A DNA stretch of 64,000 nt from Naegleria gruberi (taxonomy: Eukaryota). The DNA lies in assembly GCA_000004985.1 (NCBI GenBank), contig GG738855.1. One strand, written 5' to 3'. The stretch's first letter is position 1; each line of letters opens with the position of its first letter. A program made the translations under genes and the position numbers. Positions 14,327-55,837 of this stretch are shown piece by piece. The notes below the pieces were generated by a model. The model saw nothing but the letters and a program-made list of their open reading frames with translations, did not search any database and had not been told where the DNA came from.

Positions 14327-16198
14327 ATGTGTGGTATTGGGGCAAGATTTTCTCTCGGAGCATCTTTATCCAAGTGGAATTTGTTGGATTTGCACTTTTT
14401 ATTACAATATGGAATGGTTGTGAATAGTAATAATCAACAACAGGTTGTTGAACAAGAAGTTAGAAACGAAAATAGTGTTGTTGTTGATGACGACTCAGAA
14501 GAAAATGATGGAAGAAACGAAACATTTGAACAGAAATTAGAAAAAATCAAGGCTATTACTGTACAAAGTACTCAATCGGAAGAGGTGGATATTATTTCTG
14601 GTATTAAAAGTGTTATTTCTCCAAGAGGTCCAGATGAAACTCGTCACGAAATTATTAATTTTGGAGATTCTACAGTGACACTTATTGCTAGTATTTTGGC
14701 TCTCAGAGGTGATAAGCCATACCCACAACCTATTACCATGACTGATTTGTCTGGTGACGAACACACAATAATATGGAATGGAGAAATATTTGGAAATGAA
14801 TATTTCAGAGAATGTGTTATTGAGCATGGAAATGATACAGTTTGTCTATTGGAACATTTGGTAAAATGTGGAAATGAGGATGAAGTTTTGAATACTTTGG
14901 CTAATATTGAAGGACCTTTTAGTTTTGTCTATGTCAATAAGAGGGAAAAATATGTGTTGTTTGGAAGAGATATTTTGGGAAGAAGAAGTTTGTTATATTC
15001 TGTAAACGGTCAAGATTTGATTATTTCTAGTGTAGCTTGTCACGTTCCAGAATTTTCTCAATGGAGGTCAATTGGTGTGAATGGAGTTTTCAAATTATCC
15101 CTTAGCGATGAAACTGGTTCACAATTGCTTTCCATGATTTCTTGGGAAGAAATTTACAAGAGAACTGGTAAACATCCGTTAATATCCGATAGAGAAATGA
15201 TAGAACCAAAGACTGAAGATGATTTGCGAGTGAATGATACAGTATTTGAGAGTGTTGTCGATGAGTTCATTTCATATCTTTCAAATTCTGTTGAAAAGAG
15301 AGTGACCAATGTCTATTCCAATAATGATGAAAATACCAAAATTAGTGTTTTATTCTCGGGGGGAATTGATTCAGTAATTATAACAGCATTGGCTCATTTG
15401 AAGCTTGAAAAAGGAATGCCTATTGATTTATTGAACGTCTCATTTGGAGTTGATAAAAAGCAACAGGATCAATCAGCTGACAGAAAGCAAGCCATAGAAT
15501 CCTACGACGAGTTGGCAAGACTTTACCCTGATAGACCTTTCAGATTGGTTCTTGTTGATATTAACTCAACTGAATTAGCAGAAAATCAAAAGAGAATTGA
15601 ATCACTCATTTATCCACAAAATACTGTCATTGACTTTAATATTGGATCAGCATTATGGTTTGCCTCAAGAGGAAGAGGATACATTTACAATTCTTCAGAG
15701 CCAACCAACACATCAAATTTGTACACTTCAACAGGCAGAGTCATTTTGTGTGGTATTGGCAGTGATGAACAACTTGGAGGTTACAAGAGACATTTTAAAA
15801 AATACAAGTACAAGGGTTGGAATGGTCTTAACGAAGAAATGGATATGGACATTAAGCGGTTATGGATTAGAAACTTGGGAAGAGATGACAGAGTAATATC
15901 AGATCATGGAAGAGAATCTAGAAATCCATTTTTAGATGAGCCATTCATTAATTTTGTTAGAAAACAACCATTATGGTATTTGGCTGATTTTACCAATAAC
16001 CAACCAAATGATAAGCCAACCCAACAACAATCAACCACATTACCAGGTGATAAGAAAATACTGAGGAGAGCAGCTCAAAAACTTGGTCTTTCTAGGTCAT
16101 GTATGTATGTTAAAAGGGCAATGCAATTCGGTTCCAATGTGGCTAAAATATCCTACAAGAAACAACATGCAAGCACTATACTTCAGATTGAGTATTAA
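14327..16198 (+). CDS. Asparagine-synthetase-domain protein with an N-terminal class-II glutamine amidotransferase domain (ASNSD1-like)
   Basis: MCGIGARF... starts with the Cys2 nucleophile typical of Ntn/class-II GATases. An asn-synthase PP-loop-like segment follows (SVLFSGGIDSVIITALAH). Single 623-aa exon. Confidence 0.7.
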   Translation: MCGIGARFSLGASLSKWNLLDLHFLLQYGMVVNSNNQQQVVEQEVRNENSVVVDDDSEENDGRNETFEQKLEKIKAITVQSTQSEEVDIISGIKSVISPRGPDETRHEIINFGDSTVTLIASILALRGDKPYPQPITMTDLSGDEHTIIWNGEIFGNEYFRECVIEHGNDTVCLLEHLVKCGNEDEVLNTLANIEGPFSFVYVNKREKYVLFGRDILGRRSLLYSVNGQDLIISSVACHVPEFSQWRSIGVNGVFKLSLSDETGSQLLSMISWEEIYKRTGKHPLISDREMIEPKTEDDLRVNDTVFESVVDEFISYLSNSVEKRVTNVYSNNDENTKISVLFSGGIDSVIITALAHLKLEKGMPIDLLNVSFGVDKKQQDQSADRKQAIESYDELARLYPDRPFRLVLVDINSTELAENQKRIESLIYPQNTVIDFNIGSALWFASRGRGYIYNSSEPTNTSNLYTSTGRVILCGIGSDEQLGGYKRHFKKYKYKGWNGLNEEMDMDIKRLWIRNLGRDDRVISDHGRESRNPFLDEPFINFVRKQPLWYLADFTNNQPNDKPTQQQSTTLPGDKKILRRAAQKLGLSRSCMYVKRAMQFGSNVAKISYKKQHASTILQIEY

Positions 16199-16253
16199 AG
16201 GCTGTTTAATTCCCTTTCAAAAAACGACCGTTATTTTTCAAAGCAAGAAAAAA

Positions 16254-19200
16254 ATGTCTACCGATAGAGGTAAGGGATCAATTTTCATAATTACCTTAAT
16301 TACTTGTTAAAATTCAAATTGATATAGCTCCGAATACATTCACTGTTGGTAAGACACCATGGGTAAGGTTTACCAATAAGGAGAATGTATACTTTTATGC
16401 TAAACCTTTCAAAACTGATAGAGAGTAAGTAAGGCAAAACAAGAATAGGGTTGATGATCATAATATAATAATATTATAGTAAAATTTGGCAAGAAAAAGA
16501 AGATCCAAAAACAGGAAAGGTATTCTATTATCATTGGGCTTCCAAGACATCCTTAAATTCCTACACAGAATTTCCTGACTATGTAACATTAGCTGAGAGT
16601 GGAGCTACAACACCAACTACTCCAACAACACCAACGACACCAACTACAACAACAAATACTTCTTCACCAACAACAACAGCCTCAACAACTCCTGCTCAAT
16701 CAACACCAACATCCGCATCAGCAGCAACAACGTCCACCCCATCATCAGAAAACACATCTCAACAAGAAGATAAAAAGGTTGAAAATACAACAATCGAAAA
16801 AGTCGAGGAAAAACCAAAGGAAACAATAGCGGAACAAAAGATAGAATCAATACCTAAGGATACTGAAACTAAGGTCGAGAGCAAAACCGAAACGACACCA
16901 AGTGAGGAGGAACCTAAGAAAGAGTCACCTAAGAAACAGGAACCAAAAGAAATCAATTACCTCCCCTCCAAAACAAGAAAGACAAGAAGAACCTGTAGAA
17001 AAGCCTTTGCTAAAAAAAGAACCAGTTGTTGAGCAATCTAAACCTGTTGAGACACAACCTGTTATTGAGCAATCGAAACCAGTACCTGTAACAACAGCAC
17101 CACCAAAGGAGGAACCAGTAGAGCCAAAAGAATCCAAACAAAAGAAAGTAGTTCTGGAAGAAGATCCAAAACAAAAAAAGAAGCAAACTCAAAATGAAAA
17201 TCAAAAGCCAAAAGCAATGACGATGGTCCAAGGAAGTAGTGGAAGTGCTGGTGCAGAGGATTTTAAAGATTTTGGCCCAAATCAACCAAAACCAAGATTA
17301 TCATTTATTGGAAAACGTCAAAGTCAAGTGAAGGTTTCATTTACTAAGAAGGATTTAGCAAGAACCGACTTTGATGATTCAATCGAAGATGGTATGTTTT
17401 CAAAGTTTCTTTTTTATTAATTTTCAAAGAATTATTCAATTTACCTGGAAGAGGAGAGGTTAAGGTTCATACAGCTTTTAAGGGAACATATTTTTCAACT
17501 GTAAGTTGTTTTTACAAAAAATTAATTTATACTTTAATAGCCTAAAACCAAAAAAGATAGAATTGTAATTTTAGCAAGAGATTTTGTTGGTGCATTTTGT
17601 CTCTTTATGGCAGGCCAAGAAGGAAAGAGGTTTGTTTTTAAGATTTTAGTTTATCTCACAAATTCAGCAATAAGAAGAACGTAATTTTAGCTGCTTATCC
17701 ACTACTTGATTATTCAGATATAAATGAAGATAAGGACAAAATTACATTAAATATTGATGGGAATGAGTTTGTTTTACAAGCTAGTGCAGTAAGTAAGGAA
17801 AGATTAAAGCTAGGCCTGGAAGTTGCTTATGGTGAACTAGATGCAAAAACAGACATGGAGTTACATAGTAAGTTTTTACTAATTTACAATTAGTTTACAC
17901 CTTCATAGATTACAGACTTGGTTCTATCGAGTTTGCAAACTCCTACTATCAACAATATGTTGATGTTCCTGCCTCTTCAATTATCAAATCTATTATGGAG
18001 TCAGATCCTAACGAGATTTTAGATGAAAGTATCCAAGAAAGTTCTGATACTTTCGTTTCTAGCAAATATGATCAAAGTCTTAGATTACTCCAGACAGCTG
18101 TTAAGAATAGCAATGACAGAGATAGTGCCATCCAAGAAGCTTGTTTGTACATGGAGAGAATTATAAAAAAGATTGACAAGGGTGTATTTGAAAAATTCTC
18201 AAGAATATTGGATATTATATTCAAAAACCCAACAACTACTGAACGGCCTGAGCTCAGAAATAACTTTTTAAAGACAATGAACGACATCAGAAATAGCAAG
18301 AAAATTGCTGATAACATTATTGATGAATTGATAAAGACTGGTAACGAAAGCTTTAAGGCTATTCAGTTATGGAGGTCAAGAGCCAAATTGAAAGAAGTTC
18401 CTTTTGGGGAGGAATACCAACCAGCCACACAAAAATCAAAAGGAAAGAAGGAACTTCAACAAGAAAAGCTTATGAGAGAGTCAATAATTCAAAAAAAGTT
18501 GCCTTCTGGTGTTTTTCTTGGTGTACTATTCTTTTCCAAGACTGGAGAAGTTCTCTCTGATAGAAATGACAATTTACCAAGTGTTAAGTTAGATCGGTTA
18601 ATGTATCATAATGAAAATTCCAAGAGCTTAGACCATCAAGATTGGCAGTGGTTGCTGAAACATGGACAACAATCCTTTACTCAAACAATTTTAGATTTAG
18701 TCCCTTCGCTATCTAACCCTCAAATTATTTTAGATGTATTTAAAACTGATTTTATTAGGTCTTTTAACGATTTATATAGAGCTGTAAATCAGTCAACCAA
18801 GCCAAATGTAGATCTGGGTGTATTGTTGGATAAGTGTGTAACAATGAAGGGCCAAAATATTTTATATTATCTGATGGTTAAACAAGTAGATAAGAAGGAG
18901 TTTGAAATTCCTAATGGGTACAAATGGGATCCAACTATTGATTTTGAGTATAAGCAATATCAAAAATATGAAAACCTAGACGAATCATTTGTGATTGAAA
19001 AATTAGAAAGCCATTACTCGGGATCTAGATGGGTCTATAATGCCATGGATTACTACAAGTCAGTTACTTCGAAAACCTACTCTGACGGCTTGTGGCTGGG
19101 ATACTTCAATTTCAAGTTGACTGAAAGAGGTTCTTACCAGCTCTTAGTGGAAGATAAAGCTAGATTCATGATTCCTTCCATTAAGATTTCAGACAAATTT

Positions 19201-21243
19201 GATATTAGAAAATTGAGGGATTTACTTGCTAATAATTTCTCCTCCTTGTCTTCAGTTACAAATATTAATGAAGAAACACCAGACTACTTGTGTGAAACTT
19301 TAGAGAAACAAGTATTCCGAGCCAAACTCCAGTTACAACAAAAGATTTGTAAACCAGATTTGGGCTATCTTTACACGAATGAAATTTTAGATGTCGGTGA
19401 AAGAATCAAACTTATCCTCTTTATTGATAATGATACTACTTCACAGATTGGAAATGAGTACAATAGGGTTCTTTGGAGAGATGAGATATCATTTGAGGCT
19501 ATTCACTTATCATTGTTTTATCCTGTCCTTCATGAGCACTACATGGGAAACATTCGAAAGCAATTACTATTTGATAATTCTGTTTTCAATGATAGCTCTA
19601 CATCAAGTGATGAATATTTGAAAAATAAGGAGGTCAATAATATAGGAAGACTGAAAGAACTGATTAGAGCAGAAGAAGCTTTCTACATTATTAGGTGGCC
19701 ACACCGAGTTATTTCAACATACTTATCTATCAAGCAGAACAACAATGCAATCTTACACTTGATAAATAATGGTAAAGAACTTGCCAAGATTGTTTTTGAT
19801 CAAACTATTGGTAAGAAGAAAACCTTTAGAGATTATAGGTTGGAGCTTTTCAAGGCGCAAGATAGTCAAGAAATTGCAGCTAGGAAACAAAAAGAAATCG
19901 AGTCCAAATCAAAAGTTGGCATTCAGGAACAAGATTTAGAAAAGTCGACGTGTGCCGTTTACAACGTTGATGCAAACATTGAGGATATCCGTGATATTGA
20001 ATTGATAATGATCGGACCGACCAGGGAAGAAGTTTTGACTAATTTGATTGAAGAAGAAGTTGAATTAAATATTGTAGATCACTTGGATAGACTTGAACTT
20101 GAAGCAATCAAGAGTACCTTAGATGATGTTATATCTATTATTGAGGTTACCACTGACATGGTTGATAAAACTATTTTTGAACAAAAGAAGGCTGAATCAA
20201 AAAATCATCTCAAAGCAGAAAGGGTTGATTATATCCAATCAGTATTCAGTGGTATAAAATTTGAAGTAGAAAAGACAGAAGAAGACAAGATTGAAATTGA
20301 AGGATATGACTCATTATACAGACAATCCATTCAACTCTTTGATGCTTCTATGGATAGTTCACTTCTTTTACTTCAAACCATAGAAAAGACTCAATCAATG
20401 ATTGACCTGGTCGAGGTGATGTTTACACATGATGACAATCTTGAAAAGCAAGACAAAGTGGTCCGATCTATTCAGAGGATTAAGGATAGGCAAGCTGAAA
20501 TTATGGCAGCCCAACCTTCATTCCCTGTACTTCCAACACCGACTCACAACCACAGTGCAAATAATGCCATTCAACAATCAGCTTCTCAAATTTTGAATCA
20601 ACCAATTCATCCAACTGTTCTCCAAGCTAAAGCAAATATCAATCTAGATGAAGAAAAACTAAGACAAATGCTGGAAGAGGAGGAACGAAAGAAGACTGAA
20701 GAATACGATAGAAAGATGAGAAAATATGTACAAAAGGCAACAGGTTTTTCTTCTTTTTCTCTTCCATATGGTACTCCTCAACAATTTGTTAAGAAGAGAC
20801 CACAGAGTAATAAGCCTTCATCAACAAATGCAAATACTTCGACAAACTCTTCTATGCTGTCTAATAAGAGTATTACTGCTAATTCTCCATCAACCTCAAT
20901 GCTTAGCTCCCTACAAAATACACCAAGTACTCCACAAGAAAAGAGTAAGAAACCAACCAGTAGTTTGGCTCAGTCAATCCTCTCCAAACCAAAAACCTCA
21001 TCAACCAAACCAAACTCTTCCAAACCAGAGTTACCATCCCTTGATGGAAAACCTCACTCTTCAGCATATATTTCATTTGATACCTACAGAGACATGATGG
21101 GTCTGAGTTCATACAACAAGTTTTTGAATCAGAATAATGTTCTCTCCAACTTGGATTCTTGTCTGAAGAATTATAATGATGCCAAGAAGGCCAGTGACCA
21201 AGCTATTTTATCCTTACTTCCATCAACAAGTAAAAAAAAGTAA
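16254..21243 (+). CDS. Large composite gene (~1550 aa) with an N-terminal WW-like region, a PT/E/K-rich linker, a PH/GRAM-like region split over small exons, and a ~1100-aa unknown C-terminal region. Model: join(16254..16269,16328..16424,16480..~16960[frame break],..17391,17430..17500,17541..17629,17668..17867,17909..21243).
   Basis: Exon 1 is MSTDR|. Introns of 58 and 55 nt lead to ...KIWQEKEDPKTGKVFYYHW... (WW-like) and a TTPTTP/EPKKE repeat linker. The frame switches by +1 inside a CCCC run near 16950-16965 (see findings). Frame B continues to SIEDG|, and introns of 38-41 nt then join ELFNLPGRGEVKVHTAFKGTYFST|PKTKKDRIVILARDFVGAFCLFMAGQEGKR|SNKKNVILAAYPLLDYSDINEDKDKITLNIDGNEFVLQASAVSKERLKLGLEVAYG...H|NYRLGSIEF... 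This runs straight into the ORF at 17995..21243. All junctions are phase-consistent with canonical GT...AG. Confidence 0.5.
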
Positions 21244-21392
21244 ATATACGACATTAAGTGTTAAAACTTTAATATTGAAACAGACTTGTTGGTTCTCTTG
21301 TATTAATATATAATAATGACAGAATTTGTCTTCCTGATGATATTTTCACAGTCAAATTTTTGTTGAACAAAAATAAATTGAATTTTAAAAAA

Positions 21393-24300
21393 ATGGTCAA
21401 ACCCTATTACCGTATTGTGCCAGAGAGAACAACAGGTACTATTGCATCACCATACGCATCAATTCACTATGATCAAACAAAAGCATCCGATATTGTATAT
21501 TCACCAATGTTGTACCAAATAGGTGTTTGGAACAAACGTGAAAATGAATTAGTATCAATAATAACACCACAAGATGAATCCTACTATGGAGGAAGTATCA
21601 ATGAAGGTACCATGAAGTATAGTAATATTACCTTCATCACACATTGCAATAATTTTATTGCTGCTGGATATCAAAATGGTAAAATTTTAATTTACAACTT
21701 GAAAACAAGCGAACAAGTTTTATATACAACAGGACACTCTTCAAGTGTTTCCTATTTACAATTTAATTCCGATTGCTCTTTACTTGTAAGTGGAGGTGAT
21801 GATACCGACATTGTTTGTTGGGATATTACAGCTTGTCAAGCAAAATTTAGATTACGTGGACATAAAGGAAGAATTACTGGTTTGATATTTTTGGAGAAAA
21901 CAAATGCTTTGATTAGTTCGAGTAAGGATATGTTGATTAAAGTCTGGGAATTGACTACTTATCACTGTGTTCAAACATTGATTGGTTCTCGTAATGAAAT
22001 TTGGTCAATTTGTGTAGACTCAGATGAACATAGGTTATTCGCTGGTAGTACGGATAGTGAAATTAGAGTTTGGGATATTCAAGTATTTTTAAATAAGGAA
22101 ACTCAATATTTCTATGAAAATGATCCTGTTTTTATGGGAACTTTGAAGAGAAGAGATGAAAGTAGAGTTTTGCAAATGAAATTTGACCATACGGGTACTT
22201 TATTAGCTATTGTTGGCTCAGATTCAAAGATTGTAGAAATTTTCAAAATGAGAAATGAAAAGGAAATTGAAAAGAAGAGAAAGAATGCAGAATCTTTAAC
22301 ACCTAACATGGAATATAAGTGGTGGTTACAAATCAAGTCTAATTATGAAATTAGATCTTTGGACTTTAATCCATTCGAGTCAGTTTTAACAAGAAGTGAA
22401 ATTTCTACAGACAGCGAAGACAAACTCTCAACTAGAATTTTGAATGCCAAGATGAATGATTTTAGAGTAATAATTTCAACTTTGCGTAACACTATTGAGG
22501 AATACAAAATTGAACCAAATAAGATTGTCAAATCCAATCAAGATCAATACCAAGGAATTACATGTACAAATACTATTGAAAGACAAGGTCACGGTACTCC
22601 TGTGAGATCCATTTCAATTTCAGATGATAATGTTACCTGTATGTCATTGTCTTCTAAGGAGTGCCACATTTGGAATTTGGAAAATGGTAAATGTATCAAG
22701 ACATTGAATGATGTTGACCATGGGTTGAGTGCTATTTGGATACCTTACACAAATAACAGATACTGTTTGGTTGGTACCAAGAAGGGTAACATTCAAATAT
22801 ATGACGTGAATATTTCGGAATGTATTGAAACTATTCAAGCTCACTCAAGTACAATCTATAGTATTCAATTTGTTCCTCCAAGTAGTTTCAATGATAACAA
22901 TGGTGGTATCATTACTGCCAGTAGTGATAAGTGTGTTAAATTCTGGGAATTTGAAATGAAAGGAAAGAATTTGTCCCTCGCAATCAAGAACGTTCTCGAA
23001 ATGAACGAAGAAATTATTGCCATAACTGTTTCAAAGAATGCTAAATACTTGGCTGTTTCTCTGTTGGACAATACTGTTAAAATTTTCTACATGGACACTA
23101 TGAAATTCTTCCTCTCACTCTATGGCCACAAGTTACCAATCAAATGTTTGGATATTTCTAGTGACGAACAATTGATAGTGACTGGTAGTGATGATAAGAA
23201 CATTAAGATTTGGGGTTTGGATTTCGGTGATTGTCATCGTTCCTTATTAGCCCACGAACAAGGTATTACTTCAGTCAAGTTTATCAATGATACTCACTAT
23301 TTCTTCAGCGCCTCTAAGGATGGTAACATCAAGTATTGGGATGGTGATAAATTTGAATTAATTCAAGTTGTCACAAGCCAATATATTTCTAAATCACCAC
23401 TTTGGTGTTTGGATATTAGCAGTGACGGACACAGAATGGTTACTTCTGGCCACGAAAGAGCACTCTTTATCTATACCCAGTCTGATGATATGTTATTCTT
23501 GGAAGAAGAAAAGGAAAAGAGATTTGAAGAGGAACAACTTGAAAAGGATTTACCTCACTCCCAACAATTCAAAGATTTGTCCTTGGCAGGAGCTGAAGTC
23601 ACTCATGCTGGTCAACGTTCCATGGAAACTATTCGTGATGGTGAAAAGCTTATGGAAAACCTTGATGTTGCTATCAATGAAGAAATTAATATTATCGAAA
23701 GTATTGCTAATAATGTTACAATTCCTAAGAATCCTCTCTTGTTAGGATTATCTATTGAGGAATATGTTTGGAAGTGTTTGACACGTATTGCCAGATCTGA
23801 TTTAGATATGGTGCTTTCAATTATCCATTTCAGTCATGCCTATTTCATTTTGAAACAAGTTAACAAGTTGATGAAACAAAAGAGTGTAGATATTGAATTG
23901 TCAACTAGAATTGTTTTACTTTTAATTCATATTCACTACAAGCAATTAGTTCAAAGCAACAGTGACCAAGAAACCTTTGACTTGATGCAATCACTCCATG
24001 AACTTGTTAGAAATGGGCTTGTACAACAATCTAAGAGAATTGGATTCAACGTTGCCGCTCTTCAATTTGTAAAGAATAGAATGAAGAATGAACAAGAATT
24101 ATTTGAATTCAATAAGGAATCTAAAGTTAATGATATTGTTAAATCATACAGAGAAAGACAACGTGAAAAGAAAAGATTGGCCAAATATGAAGCTGAACAA
24201 TCATCAACAGGTAAAAAGAAGAAGGAACACAAGAGAATGGCCAAATTCAAGGGCATGTTAGATTCCATGATTGAAAAGATTGAAAATGACCCAACCAAAC

Positions 24301-24458
24301 AAGTTGTTTTTGAAAGTAATGTTAAGGATAAAAAGATTTCATCCCTCAAGAGAAAATTCAAAGAAATGGAAGATAAAAAGACCAAGAAGCTCAAGTCAAT
24401 GATTCAAGATGACGATGACACTGAAGATTTCCTCAATGAACTTTCCTCATGGGATTAG
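21393..24458 (+). CDS. WDR3: WD repeat protein 3 / U3 snoRNP protein UTP12 (yeast Dip2 family). About 13 WD repeats plus a C-terminal Utp12 region.
   Basis: TGHSSSVSYLQFNSDCSLLVSGGDDTDIVCWDI...RLRGHKGRITGLIFLEKTNALISSSKDMLIKVWEL...LFAGSTDSEIRVWDI follows the WDR3 N-terminal repeat order closely. The C-terminal half is coiled-coil and acidic, like Utp12. First ATG at 21393 (the track start at 21360 is TTG). Confidence 0.8.
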   Translation: MVKPYYRIVPERTTGTIASPYASIHYDQTKASDIVYSPMLYQIGVWNKRENELVSIITPQDESYYGGSINEGTMKYSNITFITHCNNFIAAGYQNGKILIYNLKTSEQVLYTTGHSSSVSYLQFNSDCSLLVSGGDDTDIVCWDITACQAKFRLRGHKGRITGLIFLEKTNALISSSKDMLIKVWELTTYHCVQTLIGSRNEIWSICVDSDEHRLFAGSTDSEIRVWDIQVFLNKETQYFYENDPVFMGTLKRRDESRVLQMKFDHTGTLLAIVGSDSKIVEIFKMRNEKEIEKKRKNAESLTPNMEYKWWLQIKSNYEIRSLDFNPFESVLTRSEISTDSEDKLSTRILNAKMNDFRVIISTLRNTIEEYKIEPNKIVKSNQDQYQGITCTNTIERQGHGTPVRSISISDDNVTCMSLSSKECHIWNLENGKCIKTLNDVDHGLSAIWIPYTNNRYCLVGTKKGNIQIYDVNISECIETIQAHSSTIYSIQFVPPSSFNDNNGGIITASSDKCVKFWEFEMKGKNLSLAIKNVLEMNEEIIAITVSKNAKYLAVSLLDNTVKIFYMDTMKFFLSLYGHKLPIKCLDISSDEQLIVTGSDDKNIKIWGLDFGDCHRSLLAHEQGITSVKFINDTHYFFSASKDGNIKYWDGDKFELIQVVTSQYISKSPLWCLDISSDGHRMVTSGHERALFIYTQSDDMLFLEEEKEKRFEEEQLEKDLPHSQQFKDLSLAGAEVTHAGQRSMETIRDGEKLMENLDVAINEEINIIESIANNVTIPKNPLLLGLSIEEYVWKCLTRIARSDLDMVLSIIHFSHAYFILKQVNKLMKQKSVDIELSTRIVLLLIHIHYKQLVQSNSDQETFDLMQSLHELVRNGLVQQSKRIGFNVAALQFVKNRMKNEQELFEFNKESKVNDIVKSYRERQREKKRLAKYEAEQSSTGKKKKEHKRMAKFKGMLDSMIEKIENDPTKQVVFESNVKDKKISSLKRKFKEMEDKKTKKLKSMIQDDDDTEDFLNELSSWD

Positions 24459-45217: not shown

Positions 45218-46525
45218 TTAGAAACCTCTAAAGGTAGTCTTGTCAAGCACTTGATGTAAAGTTCCGCGACCATTGTTGGTTTCAATTTTGTTTCCACCAT
45301 CTAAAACTAAATTGGCTGTTTGGTTGAATAAATTGTAAATGACAGAATCCAATTCTTTTCCTGTTTGTTTAAAATCAGGACCAGCATTGACTTCCAATAA
45401 ATAAACTTGAAGATCTTCATCAACAAGGAAATCCAAACCAAACAATTCAAAACAATGTGGAAGTGGCATAAATGCCAATTCTCCTGAAACAGCATCAAAC
45501 ATTTCACCTGTTACATCCTTGACTTGTTGGAAAATATGTTCCAATTGAGATGTTGAGATTGTTGAATCTTCATTTGCAAGATTCCAGAATAATTTAACAG
45601 ATTCACTTTCTTTGAAATCAGATTCTTTCACTTGAACACATGTATTGGTAATATGTGAGAAGGTATCTGAAATATTTTCCTTTTTGAATGGTCTCAAAGC
45701 AAAAAGAGCCAAAATTTGATCGTACACATAAACCTTAAGAGCACCAACAGCCAAGACATAAACTCTCATGTGGAATTTTCTTCCACCACAGAGCAAAAGT
45801 GGTCTATCAACATATTTCTGAATGACCCACTCTCTCAATTGTCTAAGATCGAGAACGTTGCTTTCTTCATCTTCATCATCATTATCTTCTTGTTGTTCAA
45901 AGTTAGTTGTGAAGTAGTTTTGCAATTGTTCAAGAGAATTGAAAATGAAAATTTCAGCACCCTTGTTGGTGAGAGATGGTTTTAAAATCCATGTAGCAAT
46001 TCCATTTCTATCACCTTCTTGTTCAATTTTTTCATTATTTTCCAATGATTGAACTACTTCATAAATATCATACAAGCTCTCGTCAAAATATTCGACATCA
46101 TCCAATTCATAAATATGTGTCTCTGGGATGGCCTTCTTGAGGTGGGTTTTTTCATTCTTACTCAACTTTTTGGTGACATATCTATTCAAAATACTACCAA
46201 ATTGAGCTTTTCTAATAAGACCTTTTCTAATACAATAATAATTGCAACGGAGTGGATTTTCTATTTGAGACATGACAGTATCCCAAGGAACGTTTTCATA
46301 TTCATCCCATTGAATTTCAATATTCTTTTCCTTGATGAATTTAGCAACACTTTCTTCATAATTAAATTCCTCTTCTGGGTTTGTACTTTTATGATAATTG
46401 ACAACATCGTCACGTGTATAGATATTGTAGAGATTGTGATAAGTACTTTCCGGATCTCTCAAAACACGTAACAATAAATCCCGAGAATAGGCACAGTCAA
46501 GATTAACAAGAAGATTTTTAACCAT
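45218..46525 (-). CDS. Tubulin-tyrosine-ligase family protein (TTL/TTLL-like, ATP-grasp)
   Basis: TTL-domain hallmarks are present: WILKPSLTNKGAEIFIF, RKFHMRVYVLAVGALKVYVY, ELFGLDFLVDEDLQVYLLEVNAGPDF. First ATG at 46523-46525 (the track start at 46537 is TTG). Confidence 0.75.
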   Translation of the reverse strand: MVKNLLVNLDCAYSRDLLLRVLRDPESTYHNLYNIYTRDDVVNYHKSTNPEEEFNYEESVAKFIKEKNIEIQWDEYENVPWDTVMSQIENPLRCNYYCIRKGLIRKAQFGSILNRYVTKKLSKNEKTHLKKAIPETHIYELDDVEYFDESLYDIYEVVQSLENNEKIEQEGDRNGIATWILKPSLTNKGAEIFIFNSLEQLQNYFTTNFEQQEDNDDEDEESNVLDLRQLREWVIQKYVDRPLLLCGGRKFHMRVYVLAVGALKVYVYDQILALFALRPFKKENISDTFSHITNTCVQVKESDFKESESVKLFWNLANEDSTISTSQLEHIFQQVKDVTGEMFDAVSGELAFMPLPHCFELFGLDFLVDEDLQVYLLEVNAGPDFKQTGKELDSVIYNLFNQTANLVLDGGNKIETNNGRGTLHQVLDKTTFRGF

Positions 46526-54767: not shown

Positions 54768-55837
54768 TTAGTTTGTGGAAGGTGGTTGAGTTTGTTCTGT
54801 TTGTTGTTGAGTAGTTGTGTTAGTTGTTGATGGTGGAACTGAGGCCATTGCAAAAACAGCAGAGAAAATTCCTCCCAAAATGTTTGAGACACCTTCATTT
54901 ACAGATTGTAAAACAGTCAATTCGTCAATTCTTCTATCTAAGAAATTCCATGTATCTTGGAAATCAGGACTACTATCAGTCAACATGAAAAATTCACAAC
55001 TAGTATAAACCATTCCAACACCAGCTCTCTTAATGTACCATTGAATATCAGTGTCACGGATTCCAGAAATATGACAAATTTCATCAGACAATATGGCAGC
55101 ATTGTAAAGAGCATTTAAACCATGAACTTGATTAACAGGTCCAAGTCCACTATGAGTTCCTGATGTTTTGAAACCAGTTAATTGATTGAAAATTTGGGTT
55201 GGACCATCAACAAGTGGATTTGGTCCGAAAATAAAGGTAGACATGGCTTCTGTCCATTTTCCACACTTGACGAATGGAGCAACCATTTCAAGTCTAGCAC
55301 GAATAGCTTTTTTAATAATTGTTGGTGTATCCATTCTGAATGTTAATTAATTGATCATTATATTATTTGATAAATGGTAAGGACTTACCCTGTCTTGTCC
55401 ATTGTTTGAATTTGTACACTCATAGCTCTATTACATTTTGTTAAAAAGTGTTGAATCAATTCAGTTTCTGGTCCTAAACTTGTGGCACCAGTTGCGAAAA
55501 GTTGTGAAGATGCCATTGGACTCAATCCGAAATCCTTTGAGGCTTCAGAGATAGCATCAACTGACCATCCGAGAGTTGGAACATATTTATCAACAGCAGC
55601 ATCAAGAATTGATCTTTTGAGTGTTTTAATATCCAAGGTATTATTACTTGTTGTGGAGGTATTAGTGGTTGTAGATGAAGTGAAAGATGAAGCAGGTTGG
55701 TTAAAAATTATTCTTGAATTTGTGTATTGTCTTGATTGAACAAAAACTTTACGGATCATCAAAGATGATGATTTAAATTGATTCTTGTTCTTTAATAATA
55801 AACGGGCTGATGAACGAGTAGTATTCAAACTGAACAT
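54768..55837 (-). CDS. COQ9: Ubiquinone biosynthesis protein COQ9, mitochondrial. Model: complement(join(54768..55335,55389..55837)).
   Basis: Exon 1 has a long presequence plus ILDAAVDKYVPTLGWSVDAISEASKDFGLSPMASSQLFATGATS..LIQHFLTKCNRAMSVQIQTMDKTG|. A 53-nt intron (GTAAGT..TTCAG, phase 2) leads to |MDTPTIIKKAIRARLEMVAPFVKCGKWTEAMS... This matches COQ9 (ILdAAl.hVP.hGWt..Ai.eGA..lGLS.a...mF..g..eLI.hFv..cN..L...L). Confidence 0.8.

What the first reader, a model, noticed from the sequence alone, without database searches (positions are those of the whole stretch)
16254..21243. A single 5-kb gene stitches together WW-like, PT-repeat, PH/GRAM-like and a ~1100-aa unknown module, with the PH-like region split over four 70-200-nt exons
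The track shows several separate ORFs. Phase-consistent GT...AG junctions connect them all: introns of 58, 55, 38, 40, 38 and 41 nt, with exons 17430-17500, 17541-17629 and 17668-17867 invisible as ORFs. The result is a multidomain protein that has no obvious named homolog by eye, although the C-terminal 1082-aa part has globular, conserved-looking segments. This is a candidate lineage-specific signalling or trafficking scaffold, and is likely mis-annotated as 2-3 genes by automated pipelines.
Basis: seen in the sequence. Interest (0 to 1): 0.5.

Follow-up and report, generated by a model that had tools for sequence, protein, structure and literature searches.

The report
Seven-exon Naegleria WW–PH scaffold gene
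This is one real, seven-exon gene of a Naegleria-type amoeba. It encodes a ~1,570-residue WW-like/PH-domain protein of unknown function that is already annotated as a single hypothetical protein in related species, and the copy in this window carries one extra base that breaks its reading frame.

Summary
The proposed splice chain is real. All six GT..AG introns (58, 55, 38, 40, 38, 41 nt) exist at the stated coordinates. Their positions and phases match the annotated Naegleria lovaniensis ortholog, whose three small exons are also 71, 89 and 200 nt.

The junctions are not fully phase-consistent as claimed. The spliced CDS is 4,720 nt (3n+1), because exon 3 has one extra A at 16955/16956. A 99% identical sister-strain contig lacks that A and reads open through all junctions. 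The extra base is therefore either an assembly error or a strain-specific lesion, not evidence for two genes.

The product runs, from the N-terminus:
- a degenerate WW domain
- a disordered PT/KE-rich linker
- a PH-like domain (Pfam PH_36 in the orthologs)
- a VHS/ENTH-like helical domain
- a conserved alpha/beta core
- long helices and a disordered tail

Full-length single-gene orthologs are already annotated in N. fowleri, N. lovaniensis and Willaertia magna. The PH-plus-core family has 37 cluster representatives, spanning Heterolobosea, Euglenozoa and Metamonada. It is therefore neither lineage-specific nor systematically mis-annotated. Function is uncharacterised; a membrane-recruited adaptor is the best guess. 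This is an ordinary new member of a known, unstudied family.

The parts
16254..16269 (+). Exon 1 (16 nt; ATG, MSTDR + 1 nt; ends in phase 1)
   Evidence: The N. lovaniensis exon 1 ends in the same phase. The N-termini align.
16270..16327 (+). Intron 1, 58 nt, GTAAGG..ATAG
   Evidence: AT 78%. Position and phase are conserved in N. lovaniensis.
16328..16424 (+). Exon 2 (97 nt): conserved N-terminal stretch GKTPWVRF..VYFYAKPFKTDR that precedes the WW-like motif
16425..16479 (+). Intron 2, 55 nt, GTAAGT..ATAG
   Evidence: A 1-nt indel against sister strain L006 falls inside it.
16480..17391 (+). Exon 3 (912 nt here; 914 nt and in frame in the sister strain). It encodes the WW-like motif, the PT/KE-rich linker and the start of the PH-like domain.
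16487..16576 (+). Degenerate WW domain (WQEKEDPKTGKVFYYHWASKTSLNSYTEFP)
   Evidence: Pfam WW scores E 8.6e-5, 22.9 bits, below the 26.9-bit gathering score. Relatives carry canonical WW domains at the same position. The family profile hits TCERG1/PRP40 WW structures.
16955..16956 (+). Frameshift site: AA here, a single A in sister strain L006. Removing one A joins frame 2 to frame 0 (…KKQEPKEIITSPPKQERQ…).
17313..17955 (+). PH-like domain (PH_36 type), protein residues ~317-477. It is encoded by the end of exon 3, exons 4-6 and the start of exon 7.
   Evidence: Orthologs and paralogs carry precomputed PF26278 PH_36 hits. It is present in all 26 family proteins recovered by a local jackhmmer search. 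Alignment A7 shows a beta-strand pattern followed by a C-terminal helix.
17392..17429 (+). Intron 3, 38 nt, GTATGT..AAAG (phase 1)
17430..17500 (+). Exon 4, 71 nt
   Evidence: The N. lovaniensis exon has the same length.
17501..17540 (+). Intron 4, 40 nt, GTAAGT..ATAG
   Evidence: A 2-nt indel against L006 falls inside it.
17541..17629 (+). Exon 5, 89 nt
   Evidence: The N. lovaniensis exon has the same length.
17630..17667 (+). Intron 5, 38 nt, GTTTGT..TCAG
17668..17867 (+). Exon 6, 200 nt
   Evidence: The N. lovaniensis exon has the same length.
17868..17908 (+). Intron 6, 41 nt, GTAAGT..ATAG
17909..21243 (+). Exon 7 (3,335 nt, TAA stop at 21241-21243). N. lovaniensis has one further 73-nt intron inside the equivalent exon.
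18496..19518 (+). Most conserved alpha/beta core of the family. Invariant residues are E346, R373 and G393; nearly invariant are P223, G303, D307, Y350, R418 and P422 (numbering of the exon-7 product).
   Evidence: The only fold resemblance is weak and Nudix-like.
19522..20508 (+). Long helices, coiled-coil-like, still conserved across the family
20509..21240 (+). Mostly disordered, S/T/N-rich, poorly conserved C-terminal tail, with one conserved helix (EEKLRQMLEEEE…FSLPYG)

Best explanation
Window 16254-21243 (+) is a single seven-exon protein-coding gene of a Naegleria species. It is the ortholog of N. lovaniensis C9374_007928 and N. fowleri FDP41_011054.

The intact product is about 1,572 aa. 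Its parts run in this order:
- a degenerate N-terminal WW domain
- a ~230-aa disordered PT/KE-rich linker
- a PH-like (Pfam PH_36) domain
- a VHS/ENTH-like helical domain
- a ~340-aa conserved alpha/beta core
- ~330 aa of long helices
- a disordered tail

The window copy has one extra A at 16955/16956 that shifts the frame in the linker. This is either a consensus error in the assembly or a strain- or haplotype-specific null allele. The gene is intact in a 99% identical strain.

Inferred mechanism, not shown: a cytosolic adaptor or scaffold. The PH-like and VHS/ENTH-like modules would recruit it to a membrane or cargo. The WW module would bind proline-rich or phosphorylated partners. The long helices would oligomerise it. 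The conserved alpha/beta core would be a non-catalytic binding module.
For: Gene structure (shown):
- Splice sites and intron composition fit.
- Exon lengths of 71, 89 and 200 nt and all intron phases match N. lovaniensis.
- The alignment with N. lovaniensis, N. fowleri and Willaertia proteins is colinear across every junction, at 55%, 56% and 37% identity.
- Sister-strain contig L006 is open for 563 codons with the same introns and differs by a single A at the frameshift site.
- Sister contig L001 carries the rest of the ORF at 99.4% identity.

One gene, not a chance fusion:
- The PH-like region lies N-terminal to the core in all 26 family proteins recovered by a local jackhmmer search.
- WW domains sit at the N-terminus of several members.

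Domains:
- WW.
- PH_36.
- AF2 model with pLDDT 80-93 over residues 50-560 of the exon-7 product.
Against: - The window sequence itself does not encode the full protein; the frame breaks at 16955 and a stop follows at 17030.
- No transcript data were available.
- The function rests only on weak domain analogies. Nothing beyond the weak WW match was found in the local Pfam copy, and there was no PDB sequence match.
- Foldseek found no PDB hit with E <= 0.001.
- The local Pfam copy lacks PF26278, so the window's own PH region could not be scored directly.
Confidence: 0.88

Rival explanations
1. The frameshift is genuine. In this strain or haplotype the gene is a null or truncated allele. It would yield a 221-aa WW-plus-linker product and probably nonsense-mediated decay, or at best a PH-plus-core protein re-initiated at the ATG at 17212.
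For: - The extra A is not in a long homopolymer; it is AA against A.
- The other indels between the two strains look like natural polymorphisms.
- No other long-ORF pair in the 64-kb window shows a frameshift signature, so the assembly is not indel-ridden.
- Across the 2,967 nt compared downstream there are 3 non-synonymous changes and 1 synonymous change, which shows no visible purifying selection, though 4 differences are far too few to judge.
Against: - More than 1,300 codons downstream of the shift remain open.
- The sister strain is intact.
- Orthologs are conserved over large distances.
- A single-base consensus error is the simpler reading.
Confidence: 0.4
2. There are two independent genes. 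A small WW/linker gene (16254 to about 17032) is followed by a separate PH-plus-core gene starting at the ATG at 17212.
For: - In the window, the frame from the first ATG stops at 17030.
- An in-frame ATG (MTMVQGSS…) lies upstream of the PH region.
Against: - Frame 0 is open and coding-like (KE/P-rich, matching the linker) for ~370 nt upstream of that ATG.
- The sister strain reads straight through.
- N. lovaniensis, N. fowleri and Willaertia encode WW, linker, PH and core in one protein.
- WW-PH-core is a recurrent architecture in the family.
Confidence: 0.04
3. The conserved alpha/beta core is an active Nudix-type hydrolase, which would make the protein an enzyme rather than a scaffold.
For: - Several Nudix structures (NUDT4, AvrM14, RenU, Dcp2, Tm1382, MutY) recur among the best Foldseek hits, with probability up to 0.82.
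- The strand-loop motif GVYL..L..T..EIL.D...NLP resembles the Nudix beta-strands and the 'PGG' turn (by eye).
Against: - All Foldseek E-values are >= 0.1.
- hhalign of the sub-alignment against E. coli MutT gives probability 0.1%.
- The Nudix box GX5EX7REUXEEXGU is absent. The family consensus at that place is DFxWLLxxG, with no conserved glutamates.
- No member gives a Pfam NUDIX hit.
Confidence: 0.04

Closest known systems
Naegleria lovaniensis C9374_007928 (1473 aa) and N. fowleri FDP41_011054 / XP_044567789 (1483 aa), 'PH domain-containing protein' / hypothetical protein
   Same: - Orthologs at 55-56% identity over the full length.
- Same domain order.
- Identical positions and phases for all six introns in N. 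lovaniensis, including the 71-, 89- and 200-nt exons.
   Different: - N. lovaniensis has a seventh intron (73 nt) inside the last exon.
- The linker is not alignable.
- The neighbouring genes differ.
- The window copy has a 1-nt frameshift.
- None of these proteins has been studied experimentally, as far as the searched literature shows.
Willaertia magna ABK040_006770 (1443 aa) and the wider WW-PH_36-core family (N. gruberi NAEGRDRAFT_61205, Percolomonas 'WW domain-containing protein', Diplonema papillatum KAJ9470700, Paratrimastix pyriformis KAJ4463178, Barthelona, Apiculatamorpha, Eukaryota sp. TZLM3-RCL / GEM-RC1)
   Same: - The PH-like domain is followed by the same ~830-aa conserved module: 37 representatives at E <= 0.001, 26 at E <= 1e-10.
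- Several members carry an N-terminal WW domain.
   Different: - Identity to the window protein is only 15-37%.
- Many relatives keep a canonical WW with both Trp residues, whereas the Naegleria orthologs have lost the second Trp.
- Some distant members add C-terminal F-box-type LRRs that the window protein lacks.
Pfam PF26278 (PH_36) and the PH-like fold in general
   Same: - Orthologs and paralogs have precomputed PH_36 hits.
- The window region is 68% identical to the N. lovaniensis PH region.
- UniRef names the orthologs 'PH domain-containing protein'.
   Different: - There is no match to classical PH (PF00169) or GRAM.
- No solved structure matches by sequence.
- The ligand is unknown.
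VHS/ENTH/CID-type helical domains of trafficking adaptors (TOM1/TOM1L1, GGA2, tepsin, epsin-like Ent5)
   Different: - Sequence identity is 4-13%, with no Pfam VHS/ENTH hit.
- Generic HEAT/ARM repeats score equally well.
- No ubiquitin-, lipid- or acidic-dileucine-binding residues were examined.
- This is an analogy, not membership.
Metazoan PLEKHA5/6/7 (WW-WW-PH-coiled-coil junction and trafficking adaptors). Recalled from general knowledge, not tested here.
   Same: The overall logic of the architecture: N-terminal WW, a PH domain, then long coiled-coil and disordered regions.
   Different: - No detectable sequence relationship turned up in any search.
- PLEKHA proteins lack the ~830-aa conserved module.
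- This is a lead only.

Membership tests
Heterolobosean/'excavate' WW-PH_36-core protein family (uncharacterised) | Significant similarity over the ~830-aa conserved module | tested here: met
   The profile search found 37 representatives at E <= 0.001 and 13 at E <= 1e-30. Column occupancy is >= 0.8 over exon-7 product residues 30-860.
Heterolobosean/'excavate' WW-PH_36-core protein family (uncharacterised) | PH-like domain immediately N-terminal to the core, in the same polypeptide | tested here: met
   A local jackhmmer search recovered WIN plus 26 family proteins, all carrying it. In the window the join requires introns 3-6, which are conserved in N. lovaniensis.
Heterolobosean/'excavate' WW-PH_36-core protein family (uncharacterised) | Uninterrupted reading frame from the ATG to the stop | tested here: not met
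   The window CDS is 4,720 nt and shifts frame at 16955/16956. The feature is met in sister-strain contigs L006 and L001.
WW domain (PF00397) | Score at or above the Pfam gathering threshold (26.9 bits) | tested here: not met
   22.9 bits, E 8.6e-5, residues 41-62.
WW domain (PF00397) | Two signature Trp residues ~20-22 residues apart, a central aromatic pair, and a Pro after the second Trp | tested here: inconclusive
   The first Trp (W41), the YY pair and the terminal Pro are present. The second Trp is replaced and the spacing is 3 residues longer. In N. lovaniensis the first Trp is Tyr. Homologous positions in Willaertia, P0008, P0010, P0012 and P0015 are canonical WW domains.
Pfam PH_36 (PF26278) | Profile match | not testable with these tools
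   The local Pfam copy returns no PH_36 hit even for P0002, so the model appears to be missing from it. Precomputed hits exist for P0002, P0005, P0006 and P0010, and the window region is 68% identical to P0002.
PH-like fold | Seven-stranded beta-sandwich capped by a C-terminal helix | tested here: inconclusive
   The alignment pattern fits. However, the AF2 model that included this region was unusable, at pLDDT 22-50.
Nudix hydrolases | Nudix box GX5EX7REUXEEXGU with catalytic glutamates | tested here: not met
   The family consensus at the equivalent place is DFxWLLxxG. hhalign against MutT gives probability 0.1%. No Pfam NUDIX hit was found.
Nudix hydrolases | Alpha/beta/alpha Nudix fold | tested here: inconclusive
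VHS/ENTH domains | Superhelix of ~8 helices, ~140 aa, at the start of a trafficking adaptor, with sequence-profile support | tested here: inconclusive

The most novel reading that the evidence does not exclude
The gene represents an ancient protein family of unknown function, with the architecture WW, PH_36, VHS-like domain, alpha/beta core and coiled coil. Among the 30 cluster representatives whose source names were looked up, the identified organisms were Discoba (Heterolobosea, Diplonema, a prokinetoplastid), Metamonada (Paratrimastix, Barthelona) and two unclassified eukaryotes. No animal, fungal or plant member appeared among them. Its invariant polar residues (E346, R373, Y350, D307, R418) could mark a new ligand-binding or catalytic domain used in membrane trafficking in these protists.
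Probability: 0.3. Interest if true: 0.45.

Novelty: new member of a known kind. Interest (0 to 1): 0.25.

Why it matters
Mostly for annotation. The locus should be modelled as one seven-exon gene, and the base at 16955/16956 should be checked, because an automated caller working on this sequence would truncate or split the gene.

Beyond that, the locus points to a large, conserved and wholly uncharacterised protein family. The family includes the pathogen N. fowleri and several deep-branching protist lineages. Its central ~830-aa module has no detectable relative among solved structures or in the local Pfam copy. This is useful background for anyone studying Naegleria trafficking or signalling. 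It is not surprising in itself.

Tried and rejected
- **Extra intron to repair the frame.** All GT..AG candidates of length 3n+1 between 16830 and 17100 have exon-like composition and poor donors. The sister strain then showed a simple 1-nt difference. Rejected.
- **Homolog search with the exon-3 product.** No hits; low-complexity words filled the candidate list.
- **Alignment-based homolog search (A6).** It returned only 5 proteins for the same reason.
- **Exact-product look-ups of neighbouring ORFs to name the organism.** Five of six were not on record. The COQ9 ORF, and later the 17007-17420 ORF, matched only ENA metagenome ERZ929261. The isolate therefore has no exact protein match in any NCBI-annotated genome held by these collections. 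The only N. gruberi protein found in the family is a distant paralog.
- **First AF2 job** (N. lovaniensis residues 295-1388, 5-sequence alignment). Mean pLDDT 38, unusable.
- **Short exon translations as alignment rows.** They were misaligned and dropped.
- **afdb50 fold library.** Unavailable.
- **PDB sequence and profile searches** with the PH region, the whole module and the alpha/beta sub-domain. Nothing meaningful.
- **Window-wide scan for other frameshifted long ORFs.** None was convincing. The 45218-45300 overlap is two separate genes.
- **Literature searches.** Nothing on this family.
Full report
**Organism and context**

The window is 32-36% GC and densely packed with long ORFs interrupted by very short introns. 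The closest proteins to the locus come from Naegleria lovaniensis, N. fowleri and Willaertia magna. Three metagenome contigs from one ENA sample (ERZ929261) match the window at about 99% identity or carry an identical ORF product.

The window therefore comes from a Naegleria species. Exact look-ups of its ORF products matched nothing in an NCBI-annotated genome. The only N. gruberi protein found in this family is a distant paralog, NAEGRDRAFT_61205.

The neighbouring genes are ordinary housekeeping genes. An asparagine-synthase-domain protein lies at 14327-16198, and WDR3/Utp12 lies at about 21390-24458.

**Checking the observation**

Their donors are GTAAGG, GTAAGT, GTATGT, GTAAGT, GTTTGT and GTAAGT. 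They are 75-85% AT and 27-55% T, against 61% AT and 17% T in exon 3. Exons 17430-17500, 17541-17629 and 17668-17867 are indeed absent from an ORF list that requires start codons.

One statement is wrong. The junctions are not all phase-consistent. The spliced CDS is 4,720 nt, one more than a multiple of three. Read from the ATG it terminates at 17030 after 221 codons. Exon 3 starts in frame 2 and must end in frame 0. Both frames are open between about 16845 and 17029.

There are also three small exons, not four. The PH-like region additionally uses the end of exon 3 and the start of exon 7.

**Resolving the frameshift**

I first asked whether a seventh intron of length 3n+1 could repair the frame. 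Every candidate has exon-like composition (AT 51-65%, T 6-16%) and a weak donor.

An exact-product look-up with the ORF 17007-17420 then retrieved contig L006. L006 is 2,350 nt, comes from the same ENA sample as L001, and equals window 15860-18210 at 99.07% identity.

L006 reads GAAATC-ATTACC where the window reads GAAATCAATTACC. The window therefore has one extra A at 16955/16956. The join reads …KKQEPKEIITSPPKQERQ….

The remaining indels between the two strains are informative:
- 1 nt inside intron 2
- 2 nt inside intron 4
- a net +3 nt in exon 3

Apart from the single A at the frameshift site, indels that are not multiples of three occur only in the segments predicted to be introns.

L001 carries the rest of the gene at 99.4% identity, with only four substitutions in 2,967 coding nt.

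I cannot tell whether the extra A is an assembly error or a real allele. No other long-ORF pair in the window shows a frameshift signature, and AA against A is not a classic homopolymer error. On the other hand, more than 1,300 downstream codons are intact. I put the odds at roughly 60:40 in favour of an error.

**Independent support for the gene model**

I mapped the annotated N. lovaniensis protein C9374_007928 (1473 aa) back onto its locus. Its exons are 34, 88, 887, 71, 89, 200, 489 and 2564 nt. The three small exons have exactly the window's lengths, and all six shared introns lie in the same phase. N. lovaniensis has one further 73-nt intron that the window species lacks.

A four-way alignment with N. 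lovaniensis, N. fowleri (FDP41_011054, 1483 aa) and Willaertia magna (ABK040_006770, 1443 aa) is colinear through every junction. Identities are 55%, 56% and 37%.

The single-gene reading is thus confirmed. The prediction that pipelines would split the gene does not hold for these three annotated genomes.

**What the protein is**

*N-terminus.* Pfam sees only a sub-threshold WW match at residues 41-62 (22.9 bits against a 26.9-bit cut-off). Relatives have clear-cut WW domains at the same place, for example Willaertia KIWKEIVDNNTKKIYYYNQKIKKSLWKLP. Pfam finds WW in 7 of 27 members, with a best E-value of 4e-23. The family profile also hits the WW structures of TCERG1 and PRP40. The Naegleria version is a degenerate WW that has lost the second tryptophan.

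*Linker.* About 230 residues of PT- and KE-rich sequence follow. This stretch cannot be aligned between species.

*PH-like domain.* The region is recognised as Pfam PF26278 (PH_36) in the precomputed annotation of P0002, P0005, P0006 and P0010. The local Pfam copy lacks this model, so I could not score the window sequence directly. The window region is 68% identical to N. lovaniensis, and a 23-sequence alignment shows a beta-strand pattern followed by a C-terminal helix.

*Family size and spread.* A profile search of 1.84 billion cluster representatives with the C-terminal module found 37 proteins at E <= 0.001 and 26 at E <= 1e-10. Most are 1,400-1,900 aa long. A local jackhmmer search found the PH-like region N-terminal to the core in all 26 family proteins it recovered.

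Named sources of these proteins are:
- Heterolobosea: Naegleria, Willaertia, Acrasis, Percolomonas
- Euglenozoa: Diplonema papillatum and the prokinetoplastid Apiculatamorpha
- Metamonada: Paratrimastix pyriformis and Barthelona
- two unclassified eukaryotes, TZLM3-RCL and GEM-RC1

Some distant members add C-terminal F-box-type leucine-rich repeats. The window protein has none.

**Structure**

The first AlphaFold2 run used a 5-sequence alignment and failed, with mean pLDDT 38. The second used a 27-sequence alignment of the exon-7 product. It gave mean pLDDT 68.5, with 80-93 over residues 50-560.

The model shows, in exon-7 product numbering:
- a helical bundle at about residues 20-195
- an alpha/beta region at about 200-536
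- long helices at about 538-866
- a disordered tail

I tested the Nudix idea and it is not supported:
- The Nudix box is absent; the family consensus at that place is DFxWLLxxG.
- hhalign against MutT gives probability 0.1%.

The core's invariant residues are E346, R373 and G393. Nearly invariant are P223, G303, D307, Y350, R418 and P422. These remain unexplained.

**How it probably works (inference)**

The parts are a peptide-binding WW, a flexible linker, a PH-like module, a VHS/ENTH-like bundle, a conserved globular core and ~330 residues of long helices. This is the parts list of a membrane-recruited adaptor or scaffold, and that is my best guess. It rests on weak analogies and no experiment. 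I give the gene model high confidence and the functional reading low confidence.

**Comparison with what is known, and novelty**

The closest known entities are the orthologs themselves. They are annotated as 'hypothetical protein' or 'PH domain-containing protein' and are unstudied in the literature I could search. The window gene is a new member of that known but uncharacterised family. It is not a classical PH, GRAM, Nudix or VHS family member by sequence criteria.

**Verdict**

Four corrections apply:
- There is a 1-nt frameshift at 16955/16956.
- There are three small exons, not four.
- The orthologs are not mis-annotated.
- The family extends beyond Naegleria, across Heterolobosea, Euglenozoa and Metamonada.

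Interest is low to moderate.

Noticed in passing
window 16955-16956: There is a single extra A relative to a 99% identical strain (L006). It is the only frameshift signature among long ORFs in the 64-kb window. It could be a consensus error or a heterozygous or strain-specific null allele.
   Followed up: yes
L002 8223-8295 (N. lovaniensis) vs window ~18400: N. lovaniensis has a 73-nt intron inside the exon that is continuous in the window species. This is an intron gain or loss between Naegleria species, while the other six positions are conserved.
   Followed up: partly
L002 (N. lovaniensis locus) vs window 14327-24458: Gene neighbourhood is not conserved. In N. lovaniensis the ortholog is flanked by a 1204-aa PH protein, a 151-aa ORF and a 1042-aa gene on the opposite strand. 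In the window it is flanked by an Asn-synthase-domain gene and WDR3.
   Followed up: no
window 16599-16829 (+, frame 0) and several minus-strand ORFs across 16644-17285: Spurious Q-rich and L/F-rich ORFs overlap the PT/KE-rich linker on both strands. They are by-products of low-complexity codon repeats, not genes.
   Followed up: partly
P0021, P0023 and other distant family members (profile positions ~1537-1604 of A6): Some distant relatives (e.g. Diplonema) carry C-terminal F-box-type leucine-rich repeats (FBXL2 E 3e-13). This hints at a link to protein-protein recognition or ubiquitin-ligase-like modules. The Naegleria orthologs lack them.
   Followed up: partly
P0014 (N. gruberi NAEGRDRAFT_61205), P0016 (W. 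magna ABK040_010075), L003/L004 (two paralogs in JGI sample 3300062347): The family is multi-copy in several genomes. No N. gruberi NEG-M ortholog of the window gene surfaced, only a distant paralog (E 8.6e-36).
   Followed up: partly
window 14327-16198 and 21390-24458: The flanking genes are an asparagine synthase/GATase-domain protein (ASNSD1-like, starting MCGI) and a WDR3/Utp12 double beta-propeller protein. Intergenic spacers are only about 55 and 120-150 nt.
   Followed up: yes
window 45218-45300 (minus strand): Two long minus-strand ORFs overlap by ~80 nt. On inspection this is one gene ending (…TFRGF**) followed by the ATG of the next gene, not a frameshift.
   Followed up: yes
window 54768-55334 (-): This is a COQ9-family ORF. 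Its exact product is found only in ENA metagenome ERZ929261, which shows that the same Naegleria strain or species is present in that sample (PRJEB11402).
   Followed up: partly
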